Shown piece by piece: positions 2 to 27,261 of a DNA stretch of 43,030 nt. This stretch comes from Desulfobacteraceae bacterium 4484_190.2. Its GTDB lineage: Bacteria > Desulfobacterota > DSM-4660 > Desulfatiglandales > Desulfatiglandaceae. The notes beneath the pieces were generated by a model, which made no database searches, was not told the DNA's origin, and saw only the letters and a list, made by a program, of their open reading frames with translations. The DNA lies in assembly GCA_002050025.1 (NCBI GenBank), contig MVDB01000039.1, positions 1-43,030 on the forward strand, read 5' to 3'. Positions within the stretch are counted from its first letter, which is position 1; every line of letters starts with the position of its first letter. The translations under genes were made by a program, and so were the position numbers.

Positions 2-184
2 GCCAGGGTCAGAGATTTAAGCCTGAAAGTGCTTCTTGAAAAGGAATTTGCCAATACAAAAAAACTTGTCTCCCTTTCTGGCGAATTCATCTCTTTTCCG
101 GTAAACCTGTTTCCGGAAATTCAAAAGGTCGTAACCAAATCAGGACACGCAGTAAAATTTGTTGATGCTAATGCCAATGATTAA
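2..184 (+). CDS. 3' end (last 60 codons) of a gene running off the left edge; product unknown
   Basis: Frame 2 is open from the window edge to TAA at 182-184 (...KSGHAVKFVDANAND*). The stop overlaps the ATG at 174 of the next ORF. Confidence 0.45.
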   Translation, partial: ARVRDLSLKVLLEKEFANTKKLVSLSGEFISFPVNLFPEIQKVVTKSGHAVKFVDANAND

Positions 185-1724
185 ATTAGAAAAAGCAGAT
201 GTGAAAAACCTGGAAGTTTTTGTTAATGCAAGGGATGTAAATGATGAGGGATATTCAGCCTGGATAGATTACATAGACCGTCTCAGCCTGAAACTTGACT
301 TTGTTGATTATGAAACTAAAGGGACCTATATGGGCTATTCCAGCTACACAGAATCCTATCCTGACAACTATATAGAATTTTCCCAAAAGACATATGAAAA
401 TTTTCTTAATCAATCATTGCAGGAGCAGGAACGTCAAATACGGAAAGTCCTTGTAAATGATGCAGAGCCCTGTGAAAACGAATTTTTCATCCATGGCCCC
501 TTAAGCCTCTTGGATAGGTTTAACAGTAGAGGTTGTGCCACAGGGACAATGAAGCAGATCCCTTTTCCAAAAATAAGGACATATTTGCTTGAATTGCTCT
601 CCAACTGTCAGGCAGGGGTCTGGTATAGCACTGCTTCGCTGATTGAATATCTCAAGAATAATAATCCATTTTTCCTTATCCCGGAAAAGCTCTCCTTGAA
701 AAGAAACCAGCATAATAAAGACCACTACCATAATTTCGTCGAGACAAAAACAGGCAGTATATATGGAGAATCGTGGAGCGTTGGAAATTTAAAAGACAGA
801 TTTCAAAGGGTTGAAGGGAGGTTTATAGAACGGTTTCTTGAAGGGATTCCGCTTAATATGGGGTATGTTGATGTGGCATATTCCAAAGGAAAAGAAGACA
901 TTTACCCATCAATGAACAGGCTTCGGGCTTTCCGGGCTACAGACCGCTTATTAAATGCCATGAACGGATCGATCAAGGAACCTGCAATAACCGTATTGCC
1001 CAATTATGAGATACATGTCGATTCTCTGTTCTATCCAGCAAAGGCCTTGGGCCGGCTGCTTGATCTCTGTGATGTCGTCACAATAGATACCCATACTGTA
1101 TTAAAACTGGCCAGGAAGAAAGTGATTGCACAACTTGCTGTGCATGAGAAACTGGATGTCATCGGCCTGCTGAAACGGCTTTCCGTTCACGATATCCCCG
1201 GTAATGTGAAAAAAGAAATTGCAGCATGGGCGGAGCATGCTGATAATTTCATCGTCTACCAGGGCTTTGGCCTACTTGAAGGGGATATGGACAGGGACTC
1301 TGCAAACCGGTTTGCCTCTGCAGCCATCGCTCCGGATGTAAACATTGTCCGTGACCCTAAAACGCTATATGAGAGGCTGGAAAAAGCCGGAAAGATCCCT
1401 GTTTATGTAAATCACTCTGACTCAGCGCTTAAGTCCCTTCAGGCTAATGTTCAAAGCAGGTTTGCCCGAAGGAACAGCTCAAGAAAAAAGAAGGCCCAAA
1501 AAAGGAACAAATACACACTAAAACGTACAGTTCATATAATCCTTGAGTCCCCTGATAAGGAGATATATGAAGCAGTTAAAAGCGCTCTGCTCAATAAGGG
1601 GCATGTTTTAGATACAAACAATAAAACGAAAACAGTTTCCTACACAAAAAAAGATGAAAAGATAGTTGCGGAAGTATTGAGTCTCATAAAAAAGAAATAC
1701 AGTATTGTTATAAAGGATACTTGA
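174..1724 (+). CDS. Hypothetical 516-aa protein; C-terminal half resembles the XPB/Ssl2 N-terminal (Helicase_C_3 / p52-like) module
   Basis: Long uninterrupted ORF. The ATG at 174 overlaps the upstream stop, which suggests coupling. Segment ITVLPNYEIHVDS...HTVLKLARKKVIAQL...LLKRLSVHDIPGNVKKEIAAWAEH follows the pattern I remember for that helicase-associated domain, but this is by eye only. Confidence 0.6.
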   Translation, partial: PMIKLEKADVKNLEVFVNARDVNDEGYSAWIDYIDRLSLKLDFVDYETKGTYMGYSSYTESYPDNYIEFSQKTYENFLNQSLQEQERQIRKVLVNDAEPCENEFFIHGPLSLLDRFNSRGCATGTMKQIPFPKIRTYLLELLSNCQAGVWYSTASLIEYLKNNNPFFLIPEKLSLKRNQHNKDHYHNFVETKTGSIYGESWSVGNLKDRFQRVEGRFIERFLEGIPLNMGYVDVAYSKGKEDIYPSMNRLRAFRATDRLLNAMNGSIKEPAITVLPNYEIHVDSLFYPAKALGRLLDLCDVVTIDTHTVLKLARKKVIAQLAVHEKLDVIGLLKRLSVHDIPGNVKKEIAAWAEHADNFIVYQGFGLLEGDMDRDSANRFASAAIAPDVNIVRDPKTLYERLEKAGKIPVYVNHSDSALKSLQANVQSRFARRNSSRKKKAQKRNKYTLKRTVHIILESPDKEIYEAVKSALLNKGHVLDTNNKTKTVSYTKKDEKIVAEVLSLIKKKYSIVIKDT

Positions 1725-2044: not shown

Positions 2045-3694
2045 TCAGACCTTTTTAGATCTTTCCAACAAACCTGTTTTGAGGTTTTCGAGTCGCTGTA
2101 AAATTTCCTCAAAATCATAATCAAAGTTTTCGGGATCTCTGACCATATCTTCAACTAGTCTGTAACGGAATTGATTACCTGTCTCAGAATTTATTATTCC
2201 TATAATAACTTCCAAGGTTTTGCGGTGTGAAATGGCCGCAATATCTCTCCCAAGCAACCTCGCGCTCGCGCCTTCGTAATCAAAATCATCCACAATAAGG
2301 TCTGATTCTTGACTATATAAACGATTTTCATTCCCTGCTGCCAAATAATTACGGATCAACAGTGACAAATCCTTCGCATCACTTCTGCGAAGTGGGTATT
2401 TGTCGTACCATGCAATTATTTTCATTATGGCTAACCCAGCTAAAGACACAAAACGCACTTCAAGAAGCGGCTCTACCTTCAACCTCACTAATATAGAATG
2501 TTCATATGATTCATTAAAGCCAAGAATATTCATCTCAATCTCGTTTTCCGGGGGCCAGGTGAATGACTCTTTTGGAGCTGCAATTTTTCCAAACGGAATG
2601 ATATCAACTGGGAAATCAGCTTTATACCTGAGTCGCTGAACTTCTTTCGTAGAATTGAATCTACCCGTCTTTATTAAACCTTCTTTAAACTTTTCAAATT
2701 GTTTCCAATTTGACACTCGAACCCCAAAGTCAATATCCTGGGTTGCGCGCATGGTTGAGATCCCATAGGCGCATTCTAAAATGATATCACGTGCTGTCGC
2801 ACCGACTACGAAAAAATCCATCGACAAAGATTGAGAAACCTTTTCGATAGTTTCAAGGACCTTAAAAATGAGGCTCTTTCCAAGTGGCTGCCTTGTGTAA
2901 ATTGCAATCTTTTCCGGTTTTAGGTATTTGGTCAACATGGCTGCCGCAATCTCACCACCCCAGTACGCCTGAAACTTTCCGATATCAGCTTGTCTCCACC
3001 AGTCAAAAGTGTCGGCCCTGTATCTGCCCATTAGCTTTTTTTGCCTCAATTCTTCCGGGTATGCATTAACCCATCGAATAAACAAATTAAATTTATCAGT
3101 TAATCGGCGGCCTCGCTTTCCCATTTCAATCAAATAACCCATTTGCCTTAAGTCTCTCATAACTCGGTCTACAGTACCCAATGCAACATCTGCCTTTCTG
3201 GCAATTTCTCGATATGTAGCATTTTCCAGATCTTTATTCGTTAATAGAGCGAAGATAACTTGCAGTCCTGCTGGTCGGAATGCCCGTGCTGGAGGCTTTA
3301 CTTGATCTTTTACGCGAATCTTGTTTCCTTTAACAAATATAAAGAGGGGAGGTTTATTGATGTATACATTACCTGCCGTATCAATAAATGGAATATCATC
3401 TTCCTTCATCAAATCAGCGAGTTTAGGGTTAATGTATCTAGTGATAATAATTGTGTCTGCGTGTTGGATGCTTAACAATCTTTGATGATAAAATATTCCA
3501 ATCAAAGTTCGTGTAATATTTTCTCTTAATTCAACAACAAATTTCCACTTTTTATCATTCTGTAAAACTTCAAATTCTGCATCTTGCCCATGTAGGTTTT
3601 GTCGAATTGTTGCATTTAAGTTGGTTGTTTGCTTAAATGCCTCCAAAGCTTTTTTTAAGATACCTGTCTCTTTATTTCCCCTTTTTAGTTTCAT
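2045..3694 (-). CDS. Single-chain fusion: AbiEi-family-like regulator (N-terminal domain + wHTH + AbiEi C-domain) joined to a Pol-beta-type nucleotidyltransferase (AbiEii-like)
   Basis: wHTH YREIARKADVALGTVDRVMRDLRQMGYL, then WGGEIAAAMLTKYLKPEKIAIY, which is an AbiEi-like signature. An NTase core follows: FFVVGATARD...RATQDIDFGV. Start chosen at MKLKRG (3694) because it has the best upstream purine-rich site; 3712 and 3742 are also possible. Confidence 0.6.
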   Translation of the reverse strand: MKLKRGNKETGILKKALEAFKQTTNLNATIRQNLHGQDAEFEVLQNDKKWKFVVELRENITRTLIGIFYHQRLLSIQHADTIIITRYINPKLADLMKEDDIPFIDTAGNVYINKPPLFIFVKGNKIRVKDQVKPPARAFRPAGLQVIFALLTNKDLENATYREIARKADVALGTVDRVMRDLRQMGYLIEMGKRGRRLTDKFNLFIRWVNAYPEELRQKKLMGRYRADTFDWWRQADIGKFQAYWGGEIAAAMLTKYLKPEKIAIYTRQPLGKSLIFKVLETIEKVSQSLSMDFFVVGATARDIILECAYGISTMRATQDIDFGVRVSNWKQFEKFKEGLIKTGRFNSTKEVQRLRYKADFPVDIIPFGKIAAPKESFTWPPENEIEMNILGFNESYEHSILVRLKVEPLLEVRFVSLAGLAIMKIIAWYDKYPLRRSDAKDLSLLIRNYLAAGNENRLYSQESDLIVDDFDYEGASARLLGRDIAAISHRKTLEVIIGIINSETGNQFRYRLVEDMVRDPENFDYDFEEILQRLENLKTGLLERSKKV

Positions 3695-3872
3695 TGTCTC
3701 GCCCTTGTTCATTATATGTCTATGTTCATTAATAACGAACATAACTAATTTGTGAACACAAGTCAAATATAATAATTTAACAAATTTAATATAGTCGTAA
3801 TATCAGCATATTATGGCTTTTTATTGTATCCTACAAGATCGAGAATAGTTCAAATAATGCATATACCTTTTG

Positions 3873-4249: not shown

Positions 4250-4276
4250 ATTTAATTTGCCATGAGGAGACCGTTC

Positions 4277-5683
4277 ATGTTTGTGGGCAGAAAAAACGAA
4301 CTGAAACTGCTTAATGATGCTTATCGTTCAGAAAAAGATGAACTTGTTGTGCTGTACGGCAGACGCAGGATTGGCAAAAGTAGCCTGGTGAAATGTTTTG
4401 CCAAGAAAAAAAAGTTCTATTATGAATTTGAAGCCCTGGAAGGTGAAACTACTCATGGGCAGATTGATCATTTTTCACAGCAATTGAAAAAACAGATTGA
4501 TGACCCGATCCTTGATAGTGTTCGATTTGCGAACTGGGAGCAAGTGTTTACATACCTTACGGAAAAGATCATAAAAAGAAAAACCAAGGCCAAAAAAGTC
4601 CTGTTTCTGGATGAGCTGCCGTGGATGGCCGCTGGGCGTATCAGACTTGTTTCACTTCTCAAGTACTACTGGGACAACCATTGGAAAGGCAAGCATGTTA
4701 TGCTGATCCTTTGCGGTTCTGTCGCCGCGTTCATGGTGAAAAAAGTGCTTCATTCGAATGCCCTTTACGGGCGCACCACCATAGAAATACTCTTGAAAGG
4801 CTTCTCTCCAGGGGAAGCTGCCTATCTTCTGGGTAAAAAAAGAAGTCGGGAGGAAATTTTAAACTATCAACTGGTGTTTGGCGGGGTGCCGAAATATCTA
4901 GAGCAGATCAACCCCAACCAATCATTTAATAAGAATATGAACACGTTGTGTTTTTCACCGCATGGGATCATGCTGAAAGAGGTCGAGCGTATTTTCTACA
5001 GTCAGTTCAGGGAGCCCCGGACCTACCTCAAGATAATCAATCTTTTGAAAAACGGCATCTTTTCACTAAGTGAAATCAGCTCGAAAACCAAGATTCCTTC
5101 CGGCGGCGGGCTGAATCAGTATCTGAAAAATCTCGAACGGGCGGAGATGATCCGGTCGTTTATTCCGTTTGACCGCAGCGGGAATTCCAAATTCAAAAAA
5201 TACACACTGGCGGATGAATTTCTGGTTTTCTTTTTCAAATATATCGAACCGAACCTGCGGGTCATCAAGGAAAGCAGCTCCCAAAGGCTGTTTGAAACCC
5301 TGACGCAAAACAGTTTTGATCCCTGGCTGGGGTTTGCTTTCGAACGGTTTTGTCTTAAACATGCCGGCATGCTGGCGTTTGTCATGGATTTCGCCGACGA
5401 CTTACTGCTTGCTTCGCCGTACTTTAAAAAAAATGATGAAAAATTTCAGATCGATCTTTTGTACAAGCGGGCAGATCGTGTCATCACGGTATGCGAAATC
5501 AAACATCAGAACAAAAAAATCGCGACAGATATTATTCCGGAAATGCAACGAAAATGCGCTCTCCTAAAAGTGCCCCGCGGTTATGCCCTTGAAAAAGCGT
5601 TGATCAGCCTTTACGGCCCTGACAACTCCCTTAAAGATACAGGATACTTTCACCATTTTGTGACATTGGATGATATTTTTTAA
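4277..5683 (+). CDS. AAA-type ATPase of the Arch_ATPase (PF01637-like) family with a DUF234-like C-terminal domain
   Basis: Walker A GRRRIGKSSL and Walker B VLFLDELPW are present. The C-terminal FERFC...QIDLLYK...VITVCEIKH resembles a PD-(D/E)xK-like motif. Start moved to the ATG at 4277, which has GAGGAG 6 nt upstream. Confidence 0.8.
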   Translation: MFVGRKNELKLLNDAYRSEKDELVVLYGRRRIGKSSLVKCFAKKKKFYYEFEALEGETTHGQIDHFSQQLKKQIDDPILDSVRFANWEQVFTYLTEKIIKRKTKAKKVLFLDELPWMAAGRIRLVSLLKYYWDNHWKGKHVMLILCGSVAAFMVKKVLHSNALYGRTTIEILLKGFSPGEAAYLLGKKRSREEILNYQLVFGGVPKYLEQINPNQSFNKNMNTLCFSPHGIMLKEVERIFYSQFREPRTYLKIINLLKNGIFSLSEISSKTKIPSGGGLNQYLKNLERAEMIRSFIPFDRSGNSKFKKYTLADEFLVFFFKYIEPNLRVIKESSSQRLFETLTQNSFDPWLGFAFERFCLKHAGMLAFVMDFADDLLLASPYFKKNDEKFQIDLLYKRADRVITVCEIKHQNKKIATDIIPEMQRKCALLKVPRGYALEKALISLYGPDNSLKDTGYFHHFVTLDDIF

Positions 5684-5924
5684 CGCTTCCATTCGAAAAA
5701 GAGGGGGAATGATTTCAAAATCGTGCTGAGCCTTCGTCAAGACATTTCTTTTTACGAATTCATCAAAAAAAGGGGGCACCCATTATCAAGTCGGGAGATT
5801 TTCGGGTTTTATCCACCTTTGTACACTTCTAATCTGCGTTTTGACCGTTGAATAGAAAGATCGAATAGGCCATTGGGTTACAATTTGAATATCACAGCAT
5901 TTCTGACATTATTTGGAATTTCAG

Positions 5925-5943
5925 AGCATTCCAGCATTCCATT
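5925..5943. repeat. 19-bp direct repeat, right copy (agcattccagcattccatt)
   Basis: Identical to 1985-2003. Confidence 0.85.
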
Positions 5944-6568
5944 ACGATGGCATAAACAGGTTGCCGTTAAAAAGAAAGAAAAAGGCAGCTCCGGTCATTT
6001 CAGTTGAGCCTTCACCTTAGTACTTTTTTCCCTCCAAAGTAAAAAGAACTCGTCTTAAAAAAACTCAATGGAGAGCCTCTCACCAAGACAGAGCAAGAGT
6101 ATTACTCACGAATTGTCAAAAAGAAGCTTGAAGCACTTGCCAACAGCGAGATACGGAAAATAGCTTCATCCTTGACCAATAAATAAATTCAACAAATTGA
6201 GAGAAGAATAGTGAAAAGCGGAAAAGCAGGACGGCCTTAAAAACCAAGAAAATCAATCAACCAAATGATAATTATTGTCTCGTGCAATGGAATTGAATTA
6301 ATATCGGGTAAAGAATCTGGCAAGAATTGTAGACCGACGAATTGGATTGACCAAGAGTGGTCAAATACAATATGTTGGGGTAGACTAAAAATTCAGATTC
6401 ATCTGGGCACCTTCATCCCCGTTGCATGTATGTAACACATATCGCAACGTATTGATAACATTGATTATTACATATATTGGCAAATATCTGAAATTTGAAG
6501 ACATCAGATTTTACAATTTTTCTGTATATCATTACAATTTACAAGATAAACAGGCCTTCATAATCACT

Positions 6569-6605
6569 GGTTCACTGCGGCTTCGCCGCCGTGAATCGTG
6601 GTACT
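6569..6605. repeat. Short palindromic repeat, family F (GTTCAC..GC...GC..GTGAAT.GT), short form
   Basis: ggttcactGCGGCTTCGCCGCcgtgaatcgtggtact. The ends match those of 24248-24348 and 24865-25073, and the 13-nt core GCGGCTTCGCCGC recurs at 29374-29386. Confidence 0.55.
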
Positions 6606-6656
6606 GACTGCGTCAACCCAGCGATTCGTCAAACAATAAAAAAAAGAGAAACGACT

Positions 6657-6962
6657 ATGATTAAGCCTGGTTCAAGGGACATTAAAGTCAATATGCTTAT
6701 TACGGGTGAGGAACTTGAGGAATTACAGAGGCATACTTGGTCTATGGCGGAAGCTTTTGGCCTTGACCGCCGGGTTGAACAATATAAGGGGAAGAGACCG
6801 ATCGGCTTTTACCGTTGGGATATGGAGTGCTTGATTGATGTACTCAGCATGGCGCTGGACGATCCAAAGGAATATCCAGACCGTAATAGTTCAGGCTACG
6901 CTGCTCTAAAGAATTTATGGGAAAGACTCAAGTCGGAATATGAAAGGGATTTTGGAGAATGA
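6657..6962 (+). CDS. Hypothetical 101-aa protein
   Basis: ORF whose TGA overlaps the ATG of the next gene (ATGA at 6959-6962). Start taken at the ATG at 6657, because the longer GTG start lies inside the family F hairpin. I recognise no family. Confidence 0.5.
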   Translation: MIKPGSRDIKVNMLITGEELEELQRHTWSMAEAFGLDRRVEQYKGKRPIGFYRWDMECLIDVLSMALDDPKEYPDRNSSGYAALKNLWERLKSEYERDFGE

Positions 6963-7510
6963 GCTGTATCCTGGATATTGATCTGGACTATTTCAACCTA
7001 ATCGAGAATCCCGAGAAACGGCTTCGAGAATTATTGGATTGGGGTAATCGGCGTATAGCTTTTATCGTTGAAAAGCAACACAAAACTTTTTCCCGGTGGG
7101 AATACCGTGTTAAAAGGGGAACTTTGACACCACCATCTCATATTTTACACGTTGACGAACATCACGACATGATGGACCAAAAGAGGAATACGAACATTGC
7201 TAATTTCATGTATCACGCAATGCGAACGTGGAAAAGCTCCCGAGTTCACTGGATGGTACACCACCAGATTGATTCCCCTGAAATGTGGCTTGGCGATGAT
7301 GTGCGGGAACTATTTTCCCAAAGATTTACTGTTGGTTCAAACTGCCCTCATGGATGGCCTAAGCCAGATATAGTTTCTGAATTCACAAGTCGCAATTTCG
7401 TCAGCAATAAGTTACTTCAACGGCTCTTAGAAACTGCCAAAGAATTTATGACAACAAAGCAAAGAACTGAAATGGAAAAACTGAAATGTCGAACAAGTCG
7501 CTCAGGCTGA
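6959..7510 (+). CDS. UPF0489-like protein (arginase/deacetylase-type metal-site motifs)
   Basis: N-terminal ILDIDLDYFN plus ILHVDEHHDMM about 55 residues later. This is the pattern I recall for bacterial UPF0489 (C5orf22-like) proteins. The gene has a 4-nt overlap with the upstream gene. Confidence 0.55.
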   Translation: MSCILDIDLDYFNLIENPEKRLRELLDWGNRRIAFIVEKQHKTFSRWEYRVKRGTLTPPSHILHVDEHHDMMDQKRNTNIANFMYHAMRTWKSSRVHWMVHHQIDSPEMWLGDDVRELFSQRFTVGSNCPHGWPKPDIVSEFTSRNFVSNKLLQRLLETAKEFMTTKQRTEMEKLKCRTSRSG

Positions 7511-7631
7511 CGGCCAAAAGCGTGGCAGTTGTTCCAAGGCGTTGCCCCGCAATAAGCCCGGTCGTCTCCGAAACTCTGTACTCCACTCCGTTGGCCGCAG
7601 CATACCTCTAACGGACTGAAGAAGGATTCAC

Positions 7632-8384
7632 ATGAACGAGATCAGGTGGTCAAAAACGGAAAAGAAGAAAGCCAAGGAAGCCTTCGAGAAAGCCTATGAA
7701 AGGGAATGCGCTGAGCTGGCCAGAAAGATCCGTGCCAAGGTAAAAGAGCTGTCAGGCCCGGACGATATCTGGCGGCTACATGATTTCCTGACAGAGAGGA
7801 GGAGAGAACTAGACGAGAAATACGACTACAGGTATTCGGCCCTTATCTTTGTGTTTGCGAGGTTGATCAAGGAAGGGTGGCTGAGCCTTGAGGAGTTGGA
7901 TGGGGTTGGAGAGGACAAGACCTCGAAAATAGCTGCCCTCCTCGATTTCGCTGCAGAAACAATGGAGGAGAGCGACGACAAACTGCCAAAGGACCGATTT
8001 ACCGATCCAATTCTGGGACGTCTGACCCCTTTAGAGTATGACGAGGGATGGCAAGTCGAGATCGAAAAAGAGGGAGAGACAATAAGATTTGAAATAGCCG
8101 GTGATTCTCACCCTTCGGAAGCCCTTCTGGCCCACACCCGAGACCTCCTGAAGGGTTACTCCAAGTTCAAGGCAACTGTTCATGAATTCCTTGATCGGGA
8201 AAAGAGAAAGTTTCCGTCAAGACTTGCTCAAGAAATTGACTCGCTTGGGATCGAGGCTGTTTGTCTTGGGTGGTCGGATCGACCCGATCACGGGACTATT
8301 TATTTTGCCGGACGGGAATCGCCCCGCGTTTGGCATTGTGACTGCATCGGCGGCAAACCACAGGATCTAGGCTTTGACCGGTAA
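7632..8384 (+). CDS. FRP-like (fluorescence recovery protein-like) N-terminal domain fused to a ~140-aa C-terminal domain (DUF2262/immunity-like by eye)
   Basis: Residues 5-104 carry WS..E...A..AF.KAY.RE....DDIWRLHDFL..RR.ELDEKYDYRYS.LIFVFARLIKEG...EEL....K.SKI.AL, a near-continuous match to cyanobacterial FRP as I remember it. RBS GAAGGA lies 7 nt upstream. Confidence 0.75.
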   Translation: MNEIRWSKTEKKKAKEAFEKAYERECAELARKIRAKVKELSGPDDIWRLHDFLTERRRELDEKYDYRYSALIFVFARLIKEGWLSLEELDGVGEDKTSKIAALLDFAAETMEESDDKLPKDRFTDPILGRLTPLEYDEGWQVEIEKEGETIRFEIAGDSHPSEALLAHTRDLLKGYSKFKATVHEFLDREKRKFPSRLAQEIDSLGIEAVCLGWSDRPDHGTIYFAGRESPRVWHCDCIGGKPQDLGFDR

Positions 8385-8460
8385 ATACAAGGCCGCATAA
8401 AGCGTTTGATATCAAACTGATACCCCAACGACGTATGCCTTAATAAAGGCATTCGAACTA

Positions 8461-9678
8461 ATGAAAAAACCTATCTATTTAGACAACGCCGCTACTTCCT
8501 TTCCAAAGCCTCCCCAGGTGACGGAAGCGATAATTCATTATATGAATGAGGTGGGGGCGAATCCCGGGAGATCAGGACATCAATTGTCTATTGAAGCATC
8601 TCGCGTTGTTCAGCACACTCGTGAAAGTCTCGCAACCCTGTTTCATATTTCCGACACAAAGCGCATTGTGTTTACAATGAATGTCACCGAAGCACTCAAT
8701 ACCGTTATTTATGGTTTCCTGAATGCAGGGGATAACGTCATCATTTCAGCAATGGAGCATAACTCCGTCCTGAGACCACTGAAACACCTTGAAGAAAGCG
8801 ATTTCATTACTCTAACAATAGCGCCCTGCGACCGTAAAGGCCTTCTTGACATCGATGCCCTGCCAGCTCTTGTCCGGAAAAATACCTCATTATTGGTCTT
8901 GAATCATGCCTCAAATGTCTGCGGCACAATCCAGGATGTAAGGGCTGTAAAAGATGTAATAGGTGATATTCCACTTTTGCTCGATACTGCCCAGACCTCA
9001 GGTTGTTACCCGATTGATGTTAAGGATGATGGTATTGATTTTTTGGCTTTCACCGGGCATAAAGGCCTCTTAGGTCCCCAGGGAACAGGTGGCCTATATA
9101 TACGGGAAGGCCTGAACGTCCGGCCTTTAAAGCGGGGTGGCACAGGGAGCATTTCTGAAAAATTCCAGCAACCGGACTTTTTACCCGATGCCCTCGAAAG
9201 TGGGACCCAGAATAACGTTGGTATTGCCGGACTTGGAGCTGGGGTCGATTTCATCCTGAATGAAGGTGTAAACATAATAAGGAAACACGAGAAAGGCCTC
9301 ACCTCAGCCCTGCTTAAGGCCCTGCACGATGTCCCTGGTCTCACAATTTACGGGCCCCTTGACGCTGAACTTCAGACGGCTACTATCTCTTTGACGTTTG
9401 ACAGCATTTTACCGACCGGGCCTGGCCACGAATTAGGGGGTTGTGGCGCGATCAACCTGGCATGGATGGAGGAGGGTATCCCTTTAGACGCTGCCGGTGA
9501 TATGCTAAATAGTGAATACGACATCTTTGTGCGGATAGGCCTGCATTGTGCCCCCCTTGCACACAAGACCCTGGGGACTTTTCCTGAGGGAACAGTTCGT
9601 ATAAGCATGGGATATTTCAACACATTACAGGATATGGAATCTGCTGCTAAGGCAATACGCAACATTGCCGAAAAATGA
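8461..9678 (+). CDS. Class V aminotransferase / cysteine desulfurase-family PLP enzyme
   Basis: IYLDNAATSFPKP N-terminus, PLP-lysine context FTGHKGLLGPQGTGGLY, and C-terminal RIGLHCAP...GTVRIS. Confidence 0.85.
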   Translation: MKKPIYLDNAATSFPKPPQVTEAIIHYMNEVGANPGRSGHQLSIEASRVVQHTRESLATLFHISDTKRIVFTMNVTEALNTVIYGFLNAGDNVIISAMEHNSVLRPLKHLEESDFITLTIAPCDRKGLLDIDALPALVRKNTSLLVLNHASNVCGTIQDVRAVKDVIGDIPLLLDTAQTSGCYPIDVKDDGIDFLAFTGHKGLLGPQGTGGLYIREGLNVRPLKRGGTGSISEKFQQPDFLPDALESGTQNNVGIAGLGAGVDFILNEGVNIIRKHEKGLTSALLKALHDVPGLTIYGPLDAELQTATISLTFDSILPTGPGHELGGCGAINLAWMEEGIPLDAAGDMLNSEYDIFVRIGLHCAPLAHKTLGTFPEGTVRISMGYFNTLQDMESAAKAIRNIAEK

Positions 9679-22066: not shown

Positions 22067-23362
22067 ATGAAAAAGACTTTTATGCCCACAGTGCAAACAC
22101 GTGACGAATTGGAAGCGTTACAACTCAAAGGCTTGCAATGGACAGTGAACCATGCCTACAACGGATCACCCGTATATAAGGCAAAGATGGACGATTCAGG
22201 TGTCCGCCCTGGAGATATCCGCTCCCTCTATGACTTAGACAAGCTTCCTTTCACAACATCAAAAGATCTGCAGAATGGATATCCGTTTCCGCTGCTATCT
22301 GTGCCTTTTGAAAAGGTTGTGCGAATTCATGCCTCATCGGGCACTACTGGAAAACGAAAAGTCCTCTGTTACACGCAGAAAGACATAGAAGACTGGACAC
22401 ATTTCTTTGCACGGTGTTATGAGATGGCTCAGCTCACTCAGGAAGACCGGATTCAGATCGCAGTTGGGTACGGTGTATGGACTGCCGGTGCCGGTTTCCA
22501 GTTGGGATGCGAGGCCTTTGGCGCCATGGCCATTCCGGCAGGCCCTGGAAATCTGGATATGCAGTGCGAGTTCCTGATTGACTTTCAGACTACTGTCATG
22601 TGTTGTACTGCGTCCATGGGGCTCTTAATGGCTGAAGAGGTAAACAAGCGGGGTATCAAAGACAAAATAAACCTCAAGAAAATGATCTTCGGATCAGAAC
22701 GATCCAGTGATGCCATGAGAAAGAGGATTGGTGATCTTCTGGGGATTGAGCACATGTTTGACATCCCGGGCATGACTGAACTTTACGGTCCGGGAACCGG
22801 CCTGGACTGTGCTTATCACACCGGGATACACTATTGGGCCGACTACTATATTTTGGAGATACTGGACCCTGAGACGCTAAAGACGGTTCCCGAGGGAGAG
22901 ACTGGAGAAATGGTAGTGACCACGTTAAGGAAAGAAGCGGTCCCCCTCATTCGTTACCGGACCAGGGATTTAACCCGTTTGATTCCCGGGGAGTGCCCAT
23001 GCGGATCTATTCTGCCGAGACACGACCGGATCCTGGGACGCTCCGACGACATGATAATTTTCAGGGCAGTTAACATCTATCCGGGCCAGATCGACCATGT
23101 CCTTTCTGGTATCGATGAAATAGGCAGTGAATTTCAGATCATTCTCGATAGGAAAAAAGATGGCAAAGACTATATGACCATCAAAGTCGAGCGCAACGAA
23201 GGCGTTGACAAAAGCCAGGACAGTGACCTGAGCAAAAGAATAAGTACACAGATCAAGAAAGAGATCCTGGTGAGTGGAAATGTAGAGTTGTTGGATTACG
23301 GGTCTTTACCGCGATCCGAGAGAAAGAGCAAGAGAGTATTTGATAACCGCGACAACGATTAA
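22067..23362 (+). CDS. Phenylacetate-CoA-ligase-family (PaaK/F390 synthetase-like) aryl-acid CoA ligase
   Basis: LPFTTKDL...IHASSGTTGKRKV...GYG (AMP-binding core of the PaaK type), and 431 aa. Confidence 0.85.
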   Translation: MKKTFMPTVQTRDELEALQLKGLQWTVNHAYNGSPVYKAKMDDSGVRPGDIRSLYDLDKLPFTTSKDLQNGYPFPLLSVPFEKVVRIHASSGTTGKRKVLCYTQKDIEDWTHFFARCYEMAQLTQEDRIQIAVGYGVWTAGAGFQLGCEAFGAMAIPAGPGNLDMQCEFLIDFQTTVMCCTASMGLLMAEEVNKRGIKDKINLKKMIFGSERSSDAMRKRIGDLLGIEHMFDIPGMTELYGPGTGLDCAYHTGIHYWADYYILEILDPETLKTVPEGETGEMVVTTLRKEAVPLIRYRTRDLTRLIPGECPCGSILPRHDRILGRSDDMIIFRAVNIYPGQIDHVLSGIDEIGSEFQIILDRKKDGKDYMTIKVERNEGVDKSQDSDLSKRISTQIKKEILVSGNVELLDYGSLPRSERKSKRVFDNRDND

Positions 23363-23373
23363 GGGGTTCAGAT

Positions 23374-24243
23374 ATGATTGACTATGATTATAAAAAGCCT
23401 GAGAATTTGGAAGAGGTCTTCAGCCTTCTCAAAGAATACGGCCCCAAGGCCACCCTGATTGCAGGGGGTACCGATGTGATGGTCAAAATCAGGAATACGA
23501 GAAAGGCTCCAGAGGTTTTGATATCTCTAAGGGGACTTGAGGATCTTAGATATATCAGGAAAAACAACGATTACCATATTGGAGCCCTGACCACTCACAG
23601 GATGCTGGAGCAGTCAGATCTGGTCAAAACCGAGCTGTCTGCCTTACATGATGGCGCCTCTGAGGTTGGATCGGTTCAGATAAGGAACGTTGCAACGGTT
23701 GGAGGGAATATCTGTAACGCTGCGCCTTCAGCAGACACTTCCGGCCCGCTTCTGGCGCTTGACGCCACCGTCGTACTGGAGGGACCTGAGGGAAGACGCA
23801 GCCTACCCATAGCTGACTTCTTTACCGGGACTTACAGGACCGTGCGAAAGGCAGAAGAGGTCCTTGTTGAGTTCCAAATACCAGTGGAAATGGAAGGCTT
23901 TGGAAGCGCCTACTGGAAACATTCAAGGAGGAAGGCAATGGAGCTCCCTTTATTGGGAATTTCCGTTGCTCTCAAGCTGTCTGAGAACAAAGAGATATCT
24001 GATGCAAGAATTTCCCTGACCGTGGCCGCGCCAACACCCATCAGGGCTTATAAGGCCGAGGAGTTTTTAAAAGGGAAGCCCTTAGACGATGATGTGCTGA
24101 GAGAGACAGGGAAAATCGCATCATCCCGAGACTGTTGCTCTCTCAGGGACAGCCTGAGGTGTGCAGCATGGTATCGCGAAAAAATCATACAGGTCTTTGT
24201 CCCCCGAATGGCCAGGTTAGCTGCTGAACGCATTAAAAATTAA
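23374..24243 (+). CDS. Mo-hydroxylase (xanthine dehydrogenase family) FAD-binding medium subunit
   Basis: LIAGGTDVMVKIR...VATVGGNICNAAPSADT are CoxM/XdhB-like FAD-binding motifs. Confidence 0.85.
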   Translation: MIDYDYKKPENLEEVFSLLKEYGPKATLIAGGTDVMVKIRNTRKAPEVLISLRGLEDLRYIRKNNDYHIGALTTHRMLEQSDLVKTELSALHDGASEVGSVQIRNVATVGGNICNAAPSADTSGPLLALDATVVLEGPEGRRSLPIADFFTGTYRTVRKAEEVLVEFQIPVEMEGFGSAYWKHSRRKAMELPLLGISVALKLSENKEISDARISLTVAAPTPIRAYKAEEFLKGKPLDDDVLRETGKIASSRDCCSLRDSLRCAAWYREKIIQVFVPRMARLAAERIKN

Positions 24244-24247
24244 TAAT

Positions 24248-24348
24248 AGTTCACCGCTGAGACGCTGAGTCCGCAGGGAAAAAAGTGATTTAACTTAGCG
24301 TTCTTTGCACCTAAAGAGAGCGAAGCGAACGGGCGGTGAATGGTTACC
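24248..24348. repeat. Family F palindromic repeat, long form
   Basis: The left end agttcaccgc and the right end gcggtgaatggttacc are mutually inverted. The ends match 6569-6605 and 24865-25073. Confidence 0.45.
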
Positions 24349-24376
24349 AGAAATCATTAGTACTAAGGAGCTCGAG

Positions 24377-24856
24377 ATGAAAAAAGTGCCAGTTTCTTTT
24401 ACCTTAAATGGTGACCCCGTAACAGCAGAGGTTCCGATTACGTGGTCACTTTTAGAGACATTACGGGAATATTTTGAATTAAACGGTGCTAAAAAAGGGT
24501 GCGGGGTCGGTGAGTGTGGCGCGTGCACAGTTATTGTAGACGGCGACGCAGTTAGTTCATGTTTGTATCCAATTCCCGAAATAGAAGGAAAATCAGTGAC
24601 CACAATCGAGGGTATTGCCAGTGCTGAAGGAGCGTTGCATCCACTCCAAAAGGCATTTATTGAAAACAACGGAGTCCAGTGTGGATATTGCACATCTGGA
24701 ATGATCATGTCTGCAAAATCCCTTCTGGATCAAAACCCTGATCCAACGGAAGACGAAATCAGAACAAGCATTGCTGGCAATTTTTGTCGTTGCACCGGAT
24801 ACATTCAGATTGTCGAGGCCATAGGGATGGCCGCGATAGAAAGCGATAGAAAATAA
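24377..24856 (+). CDS. Mo-hydroxylase [2Fe-2S] small subunit
   Basis: GCGVGECGACTV and CGYCTSGM...CRCTGY cluster motifs. AAGGAG lies 6 nt upstream of the ATG at 24377. The longer ORF start lies in repeat F. Confidence 0.9.
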   Translation: MKKVPVSFTLNGDPVTAEVPITWSLLETLREYFELNGAKKGCGVGECGACTVIVDGDAVSSCLYPIPEIEGKSVTTIEGIASAEGALHPLQKAFIENNGVQCGYCTSGMIMSAKSLLDQNPDPTEDEIRTSIAGNFCRCTGYIQIVEAIGMAAIESDRK

Positions 24857-24864
24857 TTTTGTAC

Positions 24865-25073
24865 TAGTTCACCTGTTAAAAAAACCTTTAGACGGGATTA
24901 CCCCGCGTTTCGCGTGGCAGGCATGGATAAACAAGATTTTTTGTCCTGTTCATCTTTAATCATAAGCGTGTGTTAAAACAATACATATTCTACTTTTGAT
25001 TTACAGGATAAAATTAATCTCCCGCTGTAAGCGGGATTAATCCTGTCAGAAAAATATGCGGCTGAACTATTAC
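24865..25073. repeat. Composite repeat: family F ends (24865-24875, 25058-25073) enclosing a family X MITE (24888-25054), which itself contains a TCCCGC-N5-GCGGGA hairpin (25020-25036)
   Basis: tagttcacctg ... gcggctgaactattac match the family F ends. tttagacgggatta and the reverse complement of attaatcctgtcagaaaaa match the X TIRs. The hairpin is flanked by a direct TTAATC/TTAATC. Confidence 0.5.
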
Positions 25074-25107
25074 ATAATTTTTAACTAAGTAAACCCTAAC
25101 GGAGGAA

Positions 25108-27244
25108 GTGATGTCTGAGTATCTGTATGTGGGAAAGAGCATTCCAAGAACCATAGAAACTGACAAAGTAACAGGCAGGGCAATCTATATCGATGATCTC
25201 AAACGCCCGGGAATGCTCTATGGAAAAATACTTTACAGCAAATATGCCCACGCAAAAATCAAAAACATTGATAAGTCCAAAGCAGAAAAGCTTCCCGGCG
25301 TGAGAGCGATCCTAACCGGATACGATATCCCTGATGTGAGGGTTGGATTCATAAAAGATCAAACAGTACTGAAAAAAGATTTGGTTCGTCAGTTTCGAGA
25401 TGAGGTAGCCTCCGTTGCAGCCATCAGTCCCGAAATAGCAGAGGAAGCGCTTGATTTAATTAAGGTAGAGTATGAGGAGCCTGTATGATCAGACTAACGT
25501 TATTCATTTGGGCAAGCAGCGAATTATGGAATATTTCGCCCAGATCGGCCTTAAGGACAAAAAGGTGAGGGTTGTGAATGCAATCGTTGGCGGTAGCTTC
25601 GGGACCAAACTGGATACGGATATCTATGAGTTCATATGCATTCAGCTCGCCTTAAAGACAAGAAAACCGGTAAAGATCTTATTTTCAAGGGAAGAAGAGT
25701 TCTTTGCTCTTCCGCCAAGACAACCCGCCCTCTTTGACATAGAGCAGGGATGTAACAAAGAAGGCAGGCTTACCTTCAGGAAATGTGAGGCCCTTCTGGA
25801 TAATGGGGCCTACACATCCTGGGGTGCCACAACCCCGTCAGTTATGATGATGCCCATGTCGTCACTTTATCGGGTGCCTAATGTGTCTTTTGAGGCGACC
25901 TGCGTTTATACCAATAATATCTACTGCCAGGCCATGAGGGGTTACGGTAACCCCCAGGCAAGTTTCGCTGTGGAGACTTCAATGGATACACTGGCCGAAA
26001 AGGCCGGTATTGACCCCGCAGAATTCAGACTGATAAACCGGAATCAGCCTGGGGATGAAACGCCTCAGAGGTTAAAAATAACCTCCTGTGGCATGGAAGA
26101 ATGTATCAATTCAGTTAAAGAAAAACTCGACTGGGACAAGAAGAAAAAAGATAAAAAAAAGGCCAGAGGCGTTGGCATGGCATCCCTTATTCATGTCGCA
26201 GGTGGCGCAAGGGTATATATGTCTGACGGTCATGGGATTATGATTAAGGTGGATCAGAACGGGTGTGTGGATGTGTTCGAGAGTGGAACGGATCAGGGCC
26301 AGGGTTCTCCCACGGTGATTTCACAGATAGTTGCAGAGGCACTGGGGTTTAAACCAGAGAATGTCTCTTTGACTATGGGTGATACCGGATTGAGTTTATG
26401 GGATGCAGGGACACATGCGAGCCGTCATACCTTTATGGCAGGCAATGCGGCAATCAGGTGTTGCAAAAAGGTCAAGAAACAGATCCTGGATATGGCTGTC
26501 GAATACATGCCCAAATTGATCAAGGGCGGTTTTAAGAGGAAAAAGAGAAAGGATCCCGATTTTGTAGAACCGGATCTTGACTACGGCCTGATTTCTGATC
26601 CCGAAAACTTAGACATAAAAGAGAGGATGGTCTTTCCCAGAAGTGACCCTGATCATCCTTATTTCAAGATGGATGTGCGTGAGATTGTGAGAAGCGGGCT
26701 CCATGTGGGGGTGGGTGACAGCAGGGTTGTGGTCGCCGAGGAGTTCTATGATCCACCCACAGAGATGCTGGATAGAGAAATGAAAGGAAATCTGTCCATG
26801 ACTTATGCCTTTGGCACCACAGGCGTTGAAGTTGAAGTGGATGAAGAAACAGGAGAGATAACGATCCTTAAGCTTATCGCCGCCCACGATGTGGGAAAGG
26901 CAATGAACCCGACCCTTTTATTAGGCCAGGTCTATGGCGCAGTCTATACGGGCGTGGGTTACGGCCTCACGGAAGAGATAAAAGTGGTTAATGGGAGAGT
27001 TATGAATCCCAACTTCCGCGACTACAAGATGCTTACTGCCAAGGATGTTATCCCTATTACGCCCGTCGTGATTGAACCGGTGGATAAGGATGGACCTTAT
27101 GGGGCCAAAGGAATTGGTGAACCAGGACTTGTTCCTACCGCACCTGCCATTGCCAATGCTATCTATGATGCCATTGGTGTCAGGATCACGGATCTGCCCA
27201 TCACTCCGGAGAAGATCCTGACAGCACTCAATGATAAGCAGTAG
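25108..27244 (+). pseudogene. Mo-hydroxylase molybdopterin-binding large subunit, disrupted (two ORFs in different frames, internal segment missing)
   Basis: ORF 25108-25488 is the a/b-hammerhead domain and ends ...IKVEYEEPV*. ORF 25472-27244 is in the +1 frame and resumes at ...QTNVIHLGKQ...KVRVVNAIVGGSFGTK. The second frame is closed by TAG at 25466-25468, so the two ORFs can only join within 25469-25488. Confidence 0.75.
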
Positions 27245-27261
27245 GGAGTAGGGAGGTATAT

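What the first reader, a model, noticed from the sequence alone, without database searches (positions are those of the whole stretch)
7632..8384. FRP-like (fluorescence recovery protein) domain fused to an extra C-terminal domain in a non-phototroph context
Residues ~5-104 read RWSKTEKKKAKEAFEKAYERECAELARKIRAKVKELSGPDDIWRLHDFLTERRRELDEKYDYRYSALIFVFARLIKEGWLSLEELDGVGEDKTSKIAALL. As I remember Synechocystis FRP, it reads ...PWSQAETQSAHALFRKAYQRELDGLL...QIDDLWKLHDFLSAKRHEIDGKYDDRQSVIIFVFAQLLKEGLVQAEEL...DKQSKIKAL..., so the match is almost continuous. It includes the Trp/His/Asp/Arg cluster (DDxW.LHDF...R) reported as the FRP active surface. FRP is known as the partner of the orange carotenoid protein in cyanobacteria. 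FRP-like homologues outside cyanobacteria have been noted, but their function is unknown. Here the domain is fused to a ~140-aa C-terminal domain (FTDPILGRL...WQVEIEKEGETIRFEI...GWSDRPDHGTIYFAG...W.C...GKP.DLGFD). To my eye that domain resembles DUF2262/immunity-protein-type modules. The gene sits in an accessory patch beside AbiE-like and ATPase genes. The fusion partner and neighbourhood may give a handle on what FRP-like proteins do in non-photosynthetic bacteria.
Basis: partly seen in the sequence, partly recalled or inferred. Interest (0 to 1): 0.7.

Follow-up and report, generated by a model that had tools for sequence, protein, structure and literature searches.

The report
FRP-like protein fused to unknown domain
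A sulfate-reducer-type anaerobe carries a real gene that joins a close relative of the cyanobacterial photoprotection regulator FRP to a well-folded domain of unknown function; this is a new architecture and a modest lead to what FRP-like proteins do outside cyanobacteria, but the gene is rare, mobile and often broken.

Summary
ORF 7632..8384 (+) encodes 250 aa. Residues 6-103 are an FRP domain (Pfam PF18032, E 4e-31; Foldseek TM 0.88-0.89 to FRP/FRPL crystal structures), and every reported functional residue is present. Residues 123-250 form a separate, confidently modelled alpha/beta domain (pLDDT 95). It belongs to an unannotated family of about 216 clusters at 50% identity, mostly stand-alone 145-aa or membrane-anchored proteins of Planctomycetota, Verrucomicrobiota and Acidobacteriota. 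Its relatives match DUF2262 only below threshold, and the fold has no match in PDB or BFVD. The host is a Desulfobacteraceae-type anaerobe, and the window holds no OCP. The fusion is real: intact orthologues share 74-96% identity, with dN/dS 0.2-0.3 for the C-domain and 0.4-0.8 for FRP. It is confined to one narrow lineage, sits in at least three different flanking contexts rich in toxin-antitoxin and defence genes, and about seven of twelve alleles have a disrupted C-domain. One of these is the 124-aa "FRPL" deposited in NCBI for Deltaproteobacteria. No toxin partner, attC site or adjacent stand-alone gene pair was found. The most likely reading is a dimeric cytoplasmic adaptor whose biological role is unknown. 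It is a new domain architecture of a known family, of moderate interest.

The parts
7632..8384 (+). Complete ORF for the 250-aa FRP-like/C-domain fusion protein, stop codon included
   Evidence: ORF list. Identical protein in three other assemblies. Intact orthologues at 74-96% identity.
7647..7940 (+). FRP-like (FRPL) all-helical domain, residues 6-103; carries W47, H50, D51, R57, F73, K99 and L103
   Evidence: Pfam PF18032 E 4e-31. PDB 5tz0, 4jdx and 8ag8 by sequence. Foldseek TM 0.88-0.89, rmsd 1.5 A. Residue mapping.
7941..7997 (+). Extension of the last FRP helix to residue 115, then a short acidic linker (residues 116-122, pLDDT about 63). It contains the A-run (about 7977-7987) where the 124-aa allele is frameshifted.
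   Evidence: AF2 model. Linker dN/dS 0.5-2.2. P0295 allele.
7998..8381 (+). C-terminal alpha/beta domain, residues 123-250 (four strands, three helices, four strands). Member of an unannotated family; family-invariant residues are G129, W140, P161 and W234.
   Evidence: phmmer: 216 representatives at E<=1e-3 and 114 at <=1e-10. Alignment A1. AF2 pLDDT 94.6, pTM 0.87. No PDB or BFVD fold match.
7620..7626 (+). Shine-Dalgarno-like GAAGGA, 5 nt upstream of the ATG
   Evidence: Read directly from the sequence.
7472..8404 (+). 933-bp block (gene, 160 bp upstream and 20 bp downstream). This is the only DNA shared with the orthologous locus L001/L002, at 89% nucleotide identity.
   Evidence: blastn/tblastx. 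Boundary alignments.
6657..6962 (+). 101-aa ORF of unknown function, co-oriented and syntenic with the fusion in the window, L021, L023 and L044. Its stop overlaps the start of the next ORF.
   Evidence: No family hit.
6959..7510 (+). 183-aa ORF. Only its N-terminal ~50 residues match peptide arginase / UPF0489. Its last 13 codons lie inside the 7472-8404 block. Syntenic with the fusion in several assemblies.
   Evidence: NCBIfam NF052474 E 1.8e-10, profile positions 4-55 of 287. PDB 8brp 2.3e-5. Pfam UPF0489 weak. Synteny.
6510..6538 (+). Best sigma-70-like consensus match upstream of the 101-aa/183-aa/fusion gene string. No such site lies in the 121-bp gap before the fusion gene.
   Evidence: Consensus scan only, which is not evidence of function.

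Best explanation
Shown: the gene encodes a genuine two-domain cytoplasmic protein. The N-terminal half is an FRP-like (FRPL) helical domain. The fusions form their own clade next to the stand-alone non-cyanobacterial FRPLs and are about 60% identical to cyanobacterial FRPs. The C-terminal half belongs to an unannotated alpha/beta family that otherwise occurs alone or behind N-terminal membrane helices.

Inferred origin: in one Desulfobacteraceae lineage, an FRPL gene was joined to the 5' end of a stand-alone C-domain gene. The junction lies just upstream of the family's conserved 'P-K-x-x-F-x-D-P-x-L-G' start.

Inferred mechanism: FRP and FRPL are obligate dimers that act purely by binding other proteins. 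The fusion most likely works as a homodimeric adaptor. The FRPL hairpin would dimerise and offer a protein-binding surface, and would hold two copies of the more strongly constrained C-domain. The C-domain looks like a binding module rather than an enzyme, because only structural residues are invariant in its family.

It cannot act in OCP photoprotection here. The biological process is unknown; a stress-related role is the best guess. The gene is an accessory, horizontally shuffled unit that is frequently inactivated.
For: Architecture. The fusion is conserved and under purifying selection: intact orthologues, with dN/dS 0.18-0.33 for the C-domain, 0.43-0.80 for FRP and 0.5-2.2 for the linker. 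C-domain family and its N-terminal variants: 216 representatives, mostly about 145 aa; at least 16 of the best 150 have N-terminal hydrophobic helices. Only G, W, P and W are invariant in the family, which argues against catalysis. Junction homology to the N-terminus of stand-alone members. The FRP fold superposes on dimeric FRP/FRPL structures. FRPL dimer and polar foci on starvation in P. borbori: PMC10172135. No OCP in the window and an anaerobe gene content. Desulfobacteraceae label on a >=90% MltG relative. Mobility and decay.
Against: No experiment or multimer model supports dimerisation or any partner. The pTM of 0.66 for the full-length model leaves the relative orientation of the two domains undefined. 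The FRP half evolves fast in the fusion, and the F73/K99/L103 surface drifts among orthologues. About seven of twelve alleles have a broken C-domain, so the fusion may be dispensable. No conserved neighbour points to a process.
Confidence: 0.5

Rival explanations
1. Rosetta-stone reading. The C-domain family is the native binding partner or client of FRP-like proteins. In the fusion, the tethered C-domain docks on the FRP head surface (the F73/K99/L103 region, only about 20 residues upstream of the linker), which is the surface that binds the OCP C-terminal domain in cyanobacteria. Stand-alone FRPLs would then regulate stand-alone or membrane-anchored C-domain proteins in trans.
For: Gene fusion of two otherwise independent families. 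The junction preserves the start of the stand-alone C-domain, as expected from read-through of adjacent genes. Both families occur in Acidobacteriota: L018 and PMC10172135. The window allele keeps all three OCP-contact residues. Loose oxidative or DNA-damage stress neighbours occur for both families: peroxiredoxin next to P0014, catalase and FMN reductase near P0013, UvrA and EndoV, and alkylation-repair genes.
Against: None of 11 stand-alone FRP/FRPL loci carries a C-domain gene within about 5 kb, and none of 15 stand-alone C-domain loci carries an FRP gene. The fusion is confined to one narrow lineage. Stand-alone C-domain genes were recovered mainly from Planctomycetota and Verrucomicrobiota, whereas FRPLs are mainly in proteobacteria and acidobacteria. 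K99 and L103 are not conserved among the fusion orthologues.
Confidence: 0.15
2. Decaying or neutral fusion. An accidental read-through fusion in a recombination-prone accessory island, with no function beyond that of its FRPL half, now being eroded.
For: Disrupted alleles are common. They include an amber codon at W214 seen in four assemblies; frameshifts; internal deletions and a 124-aa FRP-only remnant; and a replaced 3' end. Every one leaves the FRP ORF intact. Overall dN/dS is only moderately low at 0.33-0.43. Flanks are mosaic.
Against: Intact 250-aa ORFs persist down to 74% amino-acid identity and dS about 0.4, with dN/dS 0.18-0.33 in the C-domain, which is lower than in the FRP half. 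The linker length is conserved. The apparent bias towards C-domain damage is partly an ascertainment effect, because the searches and clusters are anchored on the N-terminal FRP part.
Confidence: 0.2
3. Immunity, antitoxin or defence module. The C-domain is an immunity-type protein that neutralises a toxin, and the gene belongs to a toxin-antitoxin or anti-phage system in the island.
For: The gene lies next to an AbiEi/AbiEii ORF and a PDC-S27 ATPase in the window. It lies among ParE-like, HicB and DruA genes in L001/L002, and inside a dense TA array in L040. The family shows binding-type conservation. Relatives give weak DUF2262 similarity.
Against: PADLOC gives no hit for the protein or the C-domain. 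There is no Pfam Imm-family or NCBIfam hit. No solved immunity protein matches the fold. No cognate toxin is adjacent in the window. The 15 stand-alone contexts carry housekeeping neighbours: DUF1501, G6PD, RibBA, GSIII and peroxiredoxin. No relatives were found on plasmids, phages or viral contigs.
Confidence: 0.1
4. A true FRP working with an OCP-like carotenoid protein encoded elsewhere in the genome.
For: All FRP functional residues are present, including the F/K/L triad. A Desulfobacteraceae FRPL accelerates OCP1 recovery in vitro (PMC10172135).
Against: tblastn finds no OCP, HCP or CTDH in the 43-kb window. The gene content is that of an anaerobic non-phototroph. Steube et al. report that FRPL genomes lack OCP, HCP and CTDH. 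The fused C-domain shows no NTF2 or OCP-CTD-like fold match.
Confidence: 0.02

Closest known systems
Cyanobacterial fluorescence recovery protein (FRP; Slr1964, PDB 4JDX; Fremyella FRP, PDB 5TZ0)
   Same: Same Pfam family (PF18032). Identity is 46-52% to the solved structures and up to 64% to Fischerella FRP. The helical fold superposes (TM 0.84-0.89). W50, H53, D54, R60, F76, K102 and L106 (Synechocystis numbering) are all present.
   Different: No OCP partner in the window and a non-phototrophic anaerobic host. The protein carries an additional 128-aa domain that is absent from the other FRP-family proteins among the 120 best-scoring clusters. It groups with non-cyanobacterial FRPLs in a rough tree.
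FRP-like proteins (FRPL) of proteobacteria and acidobacteria, including P. borbori FRPL (PDB 8AG8) and the Desulfobacteraceae FRPL of Steube et al. 2023
   Same: Same family and fold (8ag8: E 3e-21, TM 0.89). Same taxonomic setting as the delta-proteobacterial FRPLs that are sister to FRP. Function unknown in both cases.
   Different: Described FRPLs are single-domain proteins of about 110 aa; the stand-alone Desulfobacterales FRPL P0259 is 113 aa and 62% identical. Here the domain is fused to a second domain, and the fusions form their own clade. The paper does not mention any extension.
Pfam DUF2262 (PF10020), uncharacterised bacterial protein family
   Same: Fifteen of 44 relatives of the C-domain give collinear weak hits: protein residues about 19-100 to profile positions 1-82 of 142. 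Similar size, about 140 aa.
   Different: All hits fall below the gathering score (at most 23 bits against 29.8), and the window's own domain gives no hit at E<=1. Only the N-terminal half of the profile aligns. DUF2262 itself has no known function, and the searchable literature holds nothing on it.

Membership tests
FRP family (Pfam PF18032), in the broad sense of FRP plus FRPL | Profile HMM score above the curated gathering score over the full domain | tested here: met
   107.8 bits against 26.6; residues 6-103 match profile positions 1-98 of 99.
FRP family (Pfam PF18032), in the broad sense of FRP plus FRPL | All-helical fold (long N-terminal hairpin plus a helical head) that superposes on FRP/FRPL crystal structures | tested here: met
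   AF2 model with pLDDT about 86-94 in this region. Foldseek TM 0.84-0.89 and rmsd 1.5-2.1 A to 5tz0, 4jdx and 8ag8.
FRP family (Pfam PF18032), in the broad sense of FRP plus FRPL | Conserved W50/H53/D54/R60 cluster (Synechocystis numbering) | tested here: met
   W47, H50, D51 and R57 in the window protein.
FRP family (Pfam PF18032), in the broad sense of FRP plus FRPL | Homodimer through the N-terminal helical hairpin | not testable with these tools
   No multimer prediction or experiment was available. Hydrophobic positions equivalent to the FRP interface look conserved by eye only.
FRP in the strict sense (OCP regulator) | OCP-contact residues F76, K102 and L106 (Steube et al. 2023) | tested here: met
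   F73, K99 and L103 are present in the window allele. They are lost in orthologues: K99Q in P0002, P0003 and P0004; F73C and L103P in P0004; L103I in P0003.
FRP in the strict sense (OCP regulator) | An OCP (Carot_N plus NTF2) gene in the genome, usually adjacent | tested here: not met
   tblastn of an OCP finds nothing in the 43-kb window, whereas the genuine FRP P0007 lies next to an OCP gene. The whole genome could not be tested.
FRP in the strict sense (OCP regulator) | Accelerates OCP-red to OCP-orange recovery | not testable with these tools
   This needs a biochemical assay.
DUF2262 (PF10020) | Profile HMM score at or above the gathering score of 29.8 bits | tested here: not met
   The window's C-domain gives no hit at E<=1. 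The best relative scores 23 bits.
Unnamed C-domain family (about 145-aa proteins with motifs DPxLGxL, WPDRPxDGMIYF, RxWRCDY and LGFD) | Significant full-length sequence similarity and the family-invariant G, W, P and W residues | tested here: met
   114 representatives at E<=1e-10, covering query residues about 7-139 of 140. G129, W140, P161 and W234 are present.
Polymorphic-toxin immunity proteins or antitoxins | Adjacent cognate toxin gene, or a match to a known immunity or antitoxin family or fold | tested here: not met
   No Pfam, NCBIfam or PADLOC hit. No fold match. Neighbours of the stand-alone members are housekeeping genes.
Integron gene cassette | An attC recombination site (RYYYAAC ... 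GTTRRRY imperfect palindrome) at the cassette boundary | tested here: not met
   A custom screen found none in window 5600-8600, L040 or L002. L001 has one isolated palindrome, at 5954-6026, far from the gene. No repeat family lies between the array genes. No dedicated attC covariance model was available.

The most novel reading that the evidence does not exclude
The fusion is a Rosetta stone for the ancestral job of FRP-like proteins. On this reading, FRPLs natively bind and regulate members of this unannotated alpha/beta family, which occurs free or membrane-anchored. The surface that cyanobacteria later co-opted to control OCP would then have been shaped by selection for that partner rather than arising purely by chance. 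The C-domain would also be a fold with no solved representative.
Probability: 0.12. Interest if true: 0.75.

Novelty: new variant of a known kind. Interest (0 to 1): 0.45.

Why it matters
FRP-like proteins outside cyanobacteria are the inferred source of the cyanobacterial photoprotection regulator. Their native function is explicitly unknown (Steube et al. 2023). This fusion is the only multi-domain architecture seen among the 120 best-scoring FRP-family clusters, and its FRP domain retains all the residues reported to contact OCP. It therefore nominates a concrete candidate partner family that can be tested by binding and co-occurrence studies.

There is also a practical caveat for evolutionary work on FRP. 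At least one public 'FRPL' from Deltaproteobacteria (124 aa, MBW1676872.1 and relatives) is an eroded remnant of this fusion rather than a native single-domain protein.

The C-domain family is widespread, confidently folded and absent from Pfam, NCBIfam, PADLOC, PDB and BFVD, so it is a reasonable target for structural and functional work in its own right.

Tried and rejected
1. Sequencing-error or chimera explanation. Rejected, because intact orthologues occur in independent assemblies and dN/dS is below 1.

2. C-domain as a mimic of the OCP C-terminal domain (NTF2 fold). No such Foldseek hit.

3. Immunity or defence module. No PADLOC, Pfam or NCBIfam hit, no fold match and no adjacent toxin. 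Pfam scans of ten small neighbours in L008, L016 and L014 returned nothing.

4. Integron cassette. The 933-bp shared block and the co-oriented arrays of small genes suggested it. However, there are no attC-like sites and no inter-genic repeat family, and the boundaries are mosaic rather than two fixed ends.

5. Split-gene adjacency of stand-alone FRPL and C-domain genes. Not found in 26 stand-alone loci or in the metagenome scan. The 125-aa gene after the FRPL P0013 is unrelated.

6. Profile search of the large word-indexed database with the C-domain alignment. It returned only 7 hits because of the word index. Automatic back-translation of alignments A1 and A3 failed and was replaced by a hand-made degenerate pattern.

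7. Plasmid, phage and viral-contig relatives. None.

8. Rfam scan of the window. No hits.

9. Finding the Desulfobacteraceae FRPL sequence used by Steube et al. in their supplement. The FRPL alignments are not in the stored text, so I cannot say whether they used a truncated form of this fusion.

10. Literature on DUF2262 or on FRP fusions. Nothing found.
Full report
**1. What is in the sequence**

The window holds an ATG-initiated ORF at 7632..8384 on the + strand. A GAAGGA Shine-Dalgarno-like motif lies 5 nt upstream of the start.

Residues 6-103 match the Pfam family FRP (PF18032) over essentially the whole model, at 107.8 bits against a gathering score of 26.6 (E 4e-31). By sequence they also match the solved FRPs of Fremyella (5tz0, 1e-31) and Synechocystis (4jdx, 1e-24), and the FRP-like protein of Pseudomonas borbori (8ag8, 3e-21).

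An AlphaFold2 model of the full protein is confident (mean pLDDT 90.7). Its N-terminal half superposes on those crystal structures with target-normalised TM-scores of 0.84-0.89 and rmsd 1.5-2.1 A.

The residues reported as functionally important in FRP are all present. W50/H53/D54/R60 in Synechocystis numbering correspond to W47/H50/D51/R57. The three residues that Steube et al. 2023 place in contact with OCP1 (F76, K102, L106) correspond to F73/K99/L103.

**2. The C-terminal half is a separate, real domain**

The last FRP helix runs on to residue 115. It is followed by a short acidic linker of low confidence, and then by a compact module of four strands, three helices and four strands (residues 123-250). 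This module has pLDDT 95-98 in the full model and pLDDT 94.6 with pTM 0.87 when modelled alone.

An exhaustive phmmer search of 1.84 billion cluster representatives with residues 111-250 found 216 relatives at E<=1e-3 and 114 at E<=1e-10. Nearly all are stand-alone proteins of about 145 aa that end, like this one, in LGFD plus one residue. At least 16 of the best 150 carry one to four N-terminal hydrophobic helices instead.

The family shares the motifs DPxLGxL, PDPxLLxHAR, WPDRPxDGMIYF, RxWRCDY and LGFD. Only one Gly, two Trp and one Pro are invariant. That pattern fits a binding or structural domain better than an enzyme.

The family is not annotated anywhere I could look:
- The window's domain gives no Pfam, NCBIfam or PADLOC hit.
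- A family profile finds no PDB sequence.
- Foldseek finds no significant match in the PDB (best E 0.46, TMq at most 0.27) or in BFVD (best E 0.1).

Fifteen of 44 relatives give collinear hits to the first half of PF10020. All of them fall below the gathering score, at most 23 bits against 29.8. DUF2262 itself has no known function and no literature in the searchable library.

**3. The fusion is genuine but narrow**

The identical 250-aa protein is on record in three other assemblies. Intact 250-aa relatives occur at >=90% identity (P0300, P0301, P0303), at 86% (P0002) and at 74% (P0003).

Pairwise dN/dS across four lineages is 0.33-0.43 overall. It is 0.18-0.33 for the C-domain, 0.43-0.80 for the FRP domain and about 0.5-2.2 for the linker. 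Both domains are therefore under purifying selection, and the C-domain is the more constrained.

The junction keeps the conserved start of stand-alone family members. For example, P0014 reads PPKQPFCDPVLG where the fusion reads LPKDRFTDPILG. This is what a read-through fusion onto the 5' end of a C-domain gene would leave behind.

A profile search with the FRP domain returned 4,879 clusters. Among the best 120, everything outside this cluster is a single-domain protein of about 106-153 aa. These include a stand-alone Desulfobacterales FRPL (P0259, 113 aa, 62% identical).

In a rough neighbour-joining tree the fusions form one clade. It sits beside the stand-alone non-cyanobacterial FRPLs and apart from cyanobacterial FRPs.

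**4. Host and context**

The window is an anaerobe's chromosome. It encodes:
- anaerobic ribonucleotide reductase;
- a ferredoxin-fused ETF, acyl-CoA dehydrogenase and methylmalonyl-CoA mutase;
- a family III CoA-transferase and a TRAP transporter;
- Mo-hydroxylase subunits and hydantoinase/carboxylase subunits.

A >=90% identical MltG carries the NCBI label 'Desulfobacteraceae bacterium'. tblastn with an OCP finds nothing in the window. By contrast, a genuine cyanobacterial FRP retrieved here (P0007) sits directly after an OCP gene.

Upstream of the fusion lie a single-ORF AbiEi_2+AbiEii protein and an ATPase_2/DUF234 protein that matches the PADLOC candidate system PDC-S27 at 1e-100. These are followed by two co-oriented small ORFs of 101 and 183 aa. 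Downstream is a cysteine desulfurase-family gene (TIGR01977) and then housekeeping genes.

The consensus scan finds no promoter-like site in the 121-bp gap before the fusion gene. The best match lies ahead of the 101-aa ORF. Co-transcription is therefore possible but unproven.

**5. The gene is mobile and often broken**

- *L001/L002.* Against this orthologous locus from a different contig background, the only shared DNA is a 933-bp block (window 7472-8404, 89% identity). It comprises the gene, 160 bp upstream and 20 bp downstream. The flanks there carry ParE-like, HicB and DruA genes.
- *L035.* It has the window's left flank but L001's right flank.
- *L037.* It shares only the ORF itself.
- *L036.* It has a 181-bp deletion between two CTGAAATG repeats.

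The gene thus sits in at least three contexts with mosaic junctions. An integron-cassette explanation was tested and not supported: there are no attC-like sites and no inter-genic repeat family.

Many alleles are damaged:
- an amber codon at W214, present in four assemblies;
- a frameshift near residue 146 (P0005);
- a deletion with frameshift after residue 133 (P0297, P0298);
- replacement of the last 17 residues (P0299, P0302 and L044);
- a 124-aa FRP-only product (P0295).

P0295 is deposited in NCBI for three 'Deltaproteobacteria bacterium' MAGs. Its locus proves to be an eroded remnant of this same gene string. It joins window 6878-6996 to 7590-8032, with one extra A in the linker A-run, then to 8112-8217, and then to the L001-type flank. 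The remnant is embedded in a co-oriented toxin-antitoxin array.

Every disruption leaves the FRP ORF intact. This is partly an ascertainment effect, because the searches are anchored on the FRP part.

**6. Tests of functional hypotheses**

*Immunity or defence.* There are no library hits, no fold match to solved immunity proteins and no adjacent toxin. Fifteen stand-alone C-domain loci, from Planctomycetota, Verrucomicrobiota, Acidobacteriota and metagenomes, have unrelated housekeeping neighbours. These include DUF1501/PSCyt-PSD genes, glucose-6-phosphate dehydrogenase, RibBA, GSIII and peroxiredoxin.

*Rosetta stone (FRPL and the C-domain as partners).* The fusion itself is the only evidence. 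None of 11 stand-alone FRP/FRPL loci has a C-domain gene nearby, and none of 15 stand-alone C-domain loci has an FRP gene. The metagenome scan found only another allele of the fusion.

Neighbours of stand-alone FRPLs are diverse: UvrA and endonuclease V, catalase and FMN reductase, and a PemK TA pair with alkylation-repair genes. These are compatible with the 'potentially stress-related' role suggested by Steube et al.. They are far too few to establish it.

*Photoprotection.* This is excluded in practice by the host and by the absence of OCP.

**7. Most likely mechanism**

Shown: a two-domain cytoplasmic protein made of an FRPL domain plus a member of an unannotated alpha/beta family.

Inferred: FRP and FRPL are obligate dimers that act only by binding proteins. 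The C-domain otherwise occurs free or membrane-tethered, and it is the more constrained half. The fusion therefore most plausibly acts as a homodimeric adaptor that presents two C-domains on an FRPL scaffold, with the FRPL part supplying dimerisation and possibly a second binding surface.

The process served is unknown. I put about 0.5 on this architectural and adaptor reading, 0.2 on a neutral, decaying fusion, 0.15 on the specific partner (Rosetta-stone) reading, 0.1 on an immunity or defence role and 0.02 on a true OCP-linked FRP.

**8. Comparison with what is known, and novelty**

The N-terminal domain is a bona fide member of the FRP family and belongs to the FRPL group described by Steube et al. 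2023. It fails the defining feature of FRP in the strict sense, which is an OCP partner.

The C-domain is not a member of DUF2262 by Pfam's criterion, though it may be a distant relative.

I found no description of any FRP or FRPL fusion in the searchable literature. The protein itself is already in public databases as a hypothetical protein. I rate it a new variant (a new domain architecture) of a known kind.

Interest is moderate, at 0.45. The fusion offers a concrete, testable candidate partner for FRPLs and flags a truncated 'FRPL' in NCBI. Against that, it is restricted to one lineage, it is frequently inactivated, and its partner domain is itself of unknown function.

Noticed in passing
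window 6959-7510 (+): A 183-aa ORF whose N-terminal ~50 residues, including the motif HVDEHHD, match peptide arginase (NCBIfam NF052474, E 1.8e-10, but only profile positions 4-55 of 287; PDB 8brp) and UPF0489. It is too short for a full arginase fold. Its last 13 codons lie inside the DNA block shared with L001, so it may be a truncated relic. It is translationally coupled to the preceding 101-aa ORF (ATGA overlap).
   Followed up: partly
NCBI MBW1676872.1 / MBW1795922.1 / MBW2330385.1 (P0295); loci L040-L043: The 124-aa 'hypothetical protein [Deltaproteobacteria bacterium]' that looks like a single-domain FRPL is an eroded remnant of this fusion. It has a +1 frameshift in a linker A-run plus internal and 3' deletions of the C-domain. 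Surveys of FRPL diversity that use NCBI proteins may include it as if it were native.
   Followed up: yes
L040 1-10375: A dense, co-oriented array of small genes dominated by toxin-antitoxin pairs (MazE/PemK, HigB-like with antitoxin twice, HicB/HicA, BrnT/CopG) around the eroded FRP gene. It looks like a cassette array, but no attC-like sites or inter-genic repeats were detected.
   Followed up: partly
L001 5954-6026: A 73-nt near-perfect palindrome, GTTTAACAGGAACG...CGTTCCTGTTAAAC, with attC-like RYYYAAC/GTTRRRY ends. It is the only such element in the loci screened and lies about 1.5 kb downstream of the fusion gene.
   Followed up: no
window 2045-3766 (-): A single 573-aa ORF combining an AbiEi_2 antitoxin-type domain (residues 220-301) with an AbiEii nucleotidyltransferase toxin domain (residues 315-477), plus an N-terminal region with weak HTH/CasR-like hits. 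These are normally two separate genes of a type IV TA / Abi system.
   Followed up: no
window 4262-5683 (+): An ATPase_2 + DUF234 protein that matches the PADLOC candidate defence system PDC-S27 over its full length (E 9e-101).
   Followed up: no
window 159-1724 (+): A 521-aa ORF with no Pfam hit and only weak PADLOC Cas6/Cas6d hits in its C-terminal ~90 residues (E 0.003-0.02). No CRISPR array was looked for.
   Followed up: no
window 5684-6590: About 900 bp with no convincing ORF between the ATPase gene and the 101-aa ORF. It is A+T-rich, has several sigma-70-like consensus matches on both strands and gives no Rfam hit. It may be an island junction or a decayed gene.
   Followed up: no
L005, L009, L014 (Planctomycetota MAGs); L038/L039: In three planctomycete loci, stand-alone C-domain genes lie next to DUF1501 or PSCyt/DUF1549/DUF1553 genes. 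The closest stand-alone relative of the fusion's C-domain (P0014, 51% identical) lies 25 bp downstream of a peroxiredoxin (AhpC-TSA). This may be lineage synteny or a hint of a redox-stress link.
   Followed up: partly
window 7278-7285 and 7466-7473; L036: Two CTGAAATG direct repeats flank a 181-bp segment that is deleted in L036. The right-hand repeat coincides to within a few nucleotides with the left edge (7472) of the block shared with L001. This could be a recombination hot spot or a coincidence.
   Followed up: partly
window 22067-31182 (+): A catabolic cluster: a phenylacetate-CoA-ligase-like enzyme, xanthine-dehydrogenase-family flavoprotein and MoCo subunits, and hydantoinase A/B (acetone/acetophenone-carboxylase-like) subunits. 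This suggests anaerobic aromatic or ketone degradation.
   Followed up: no
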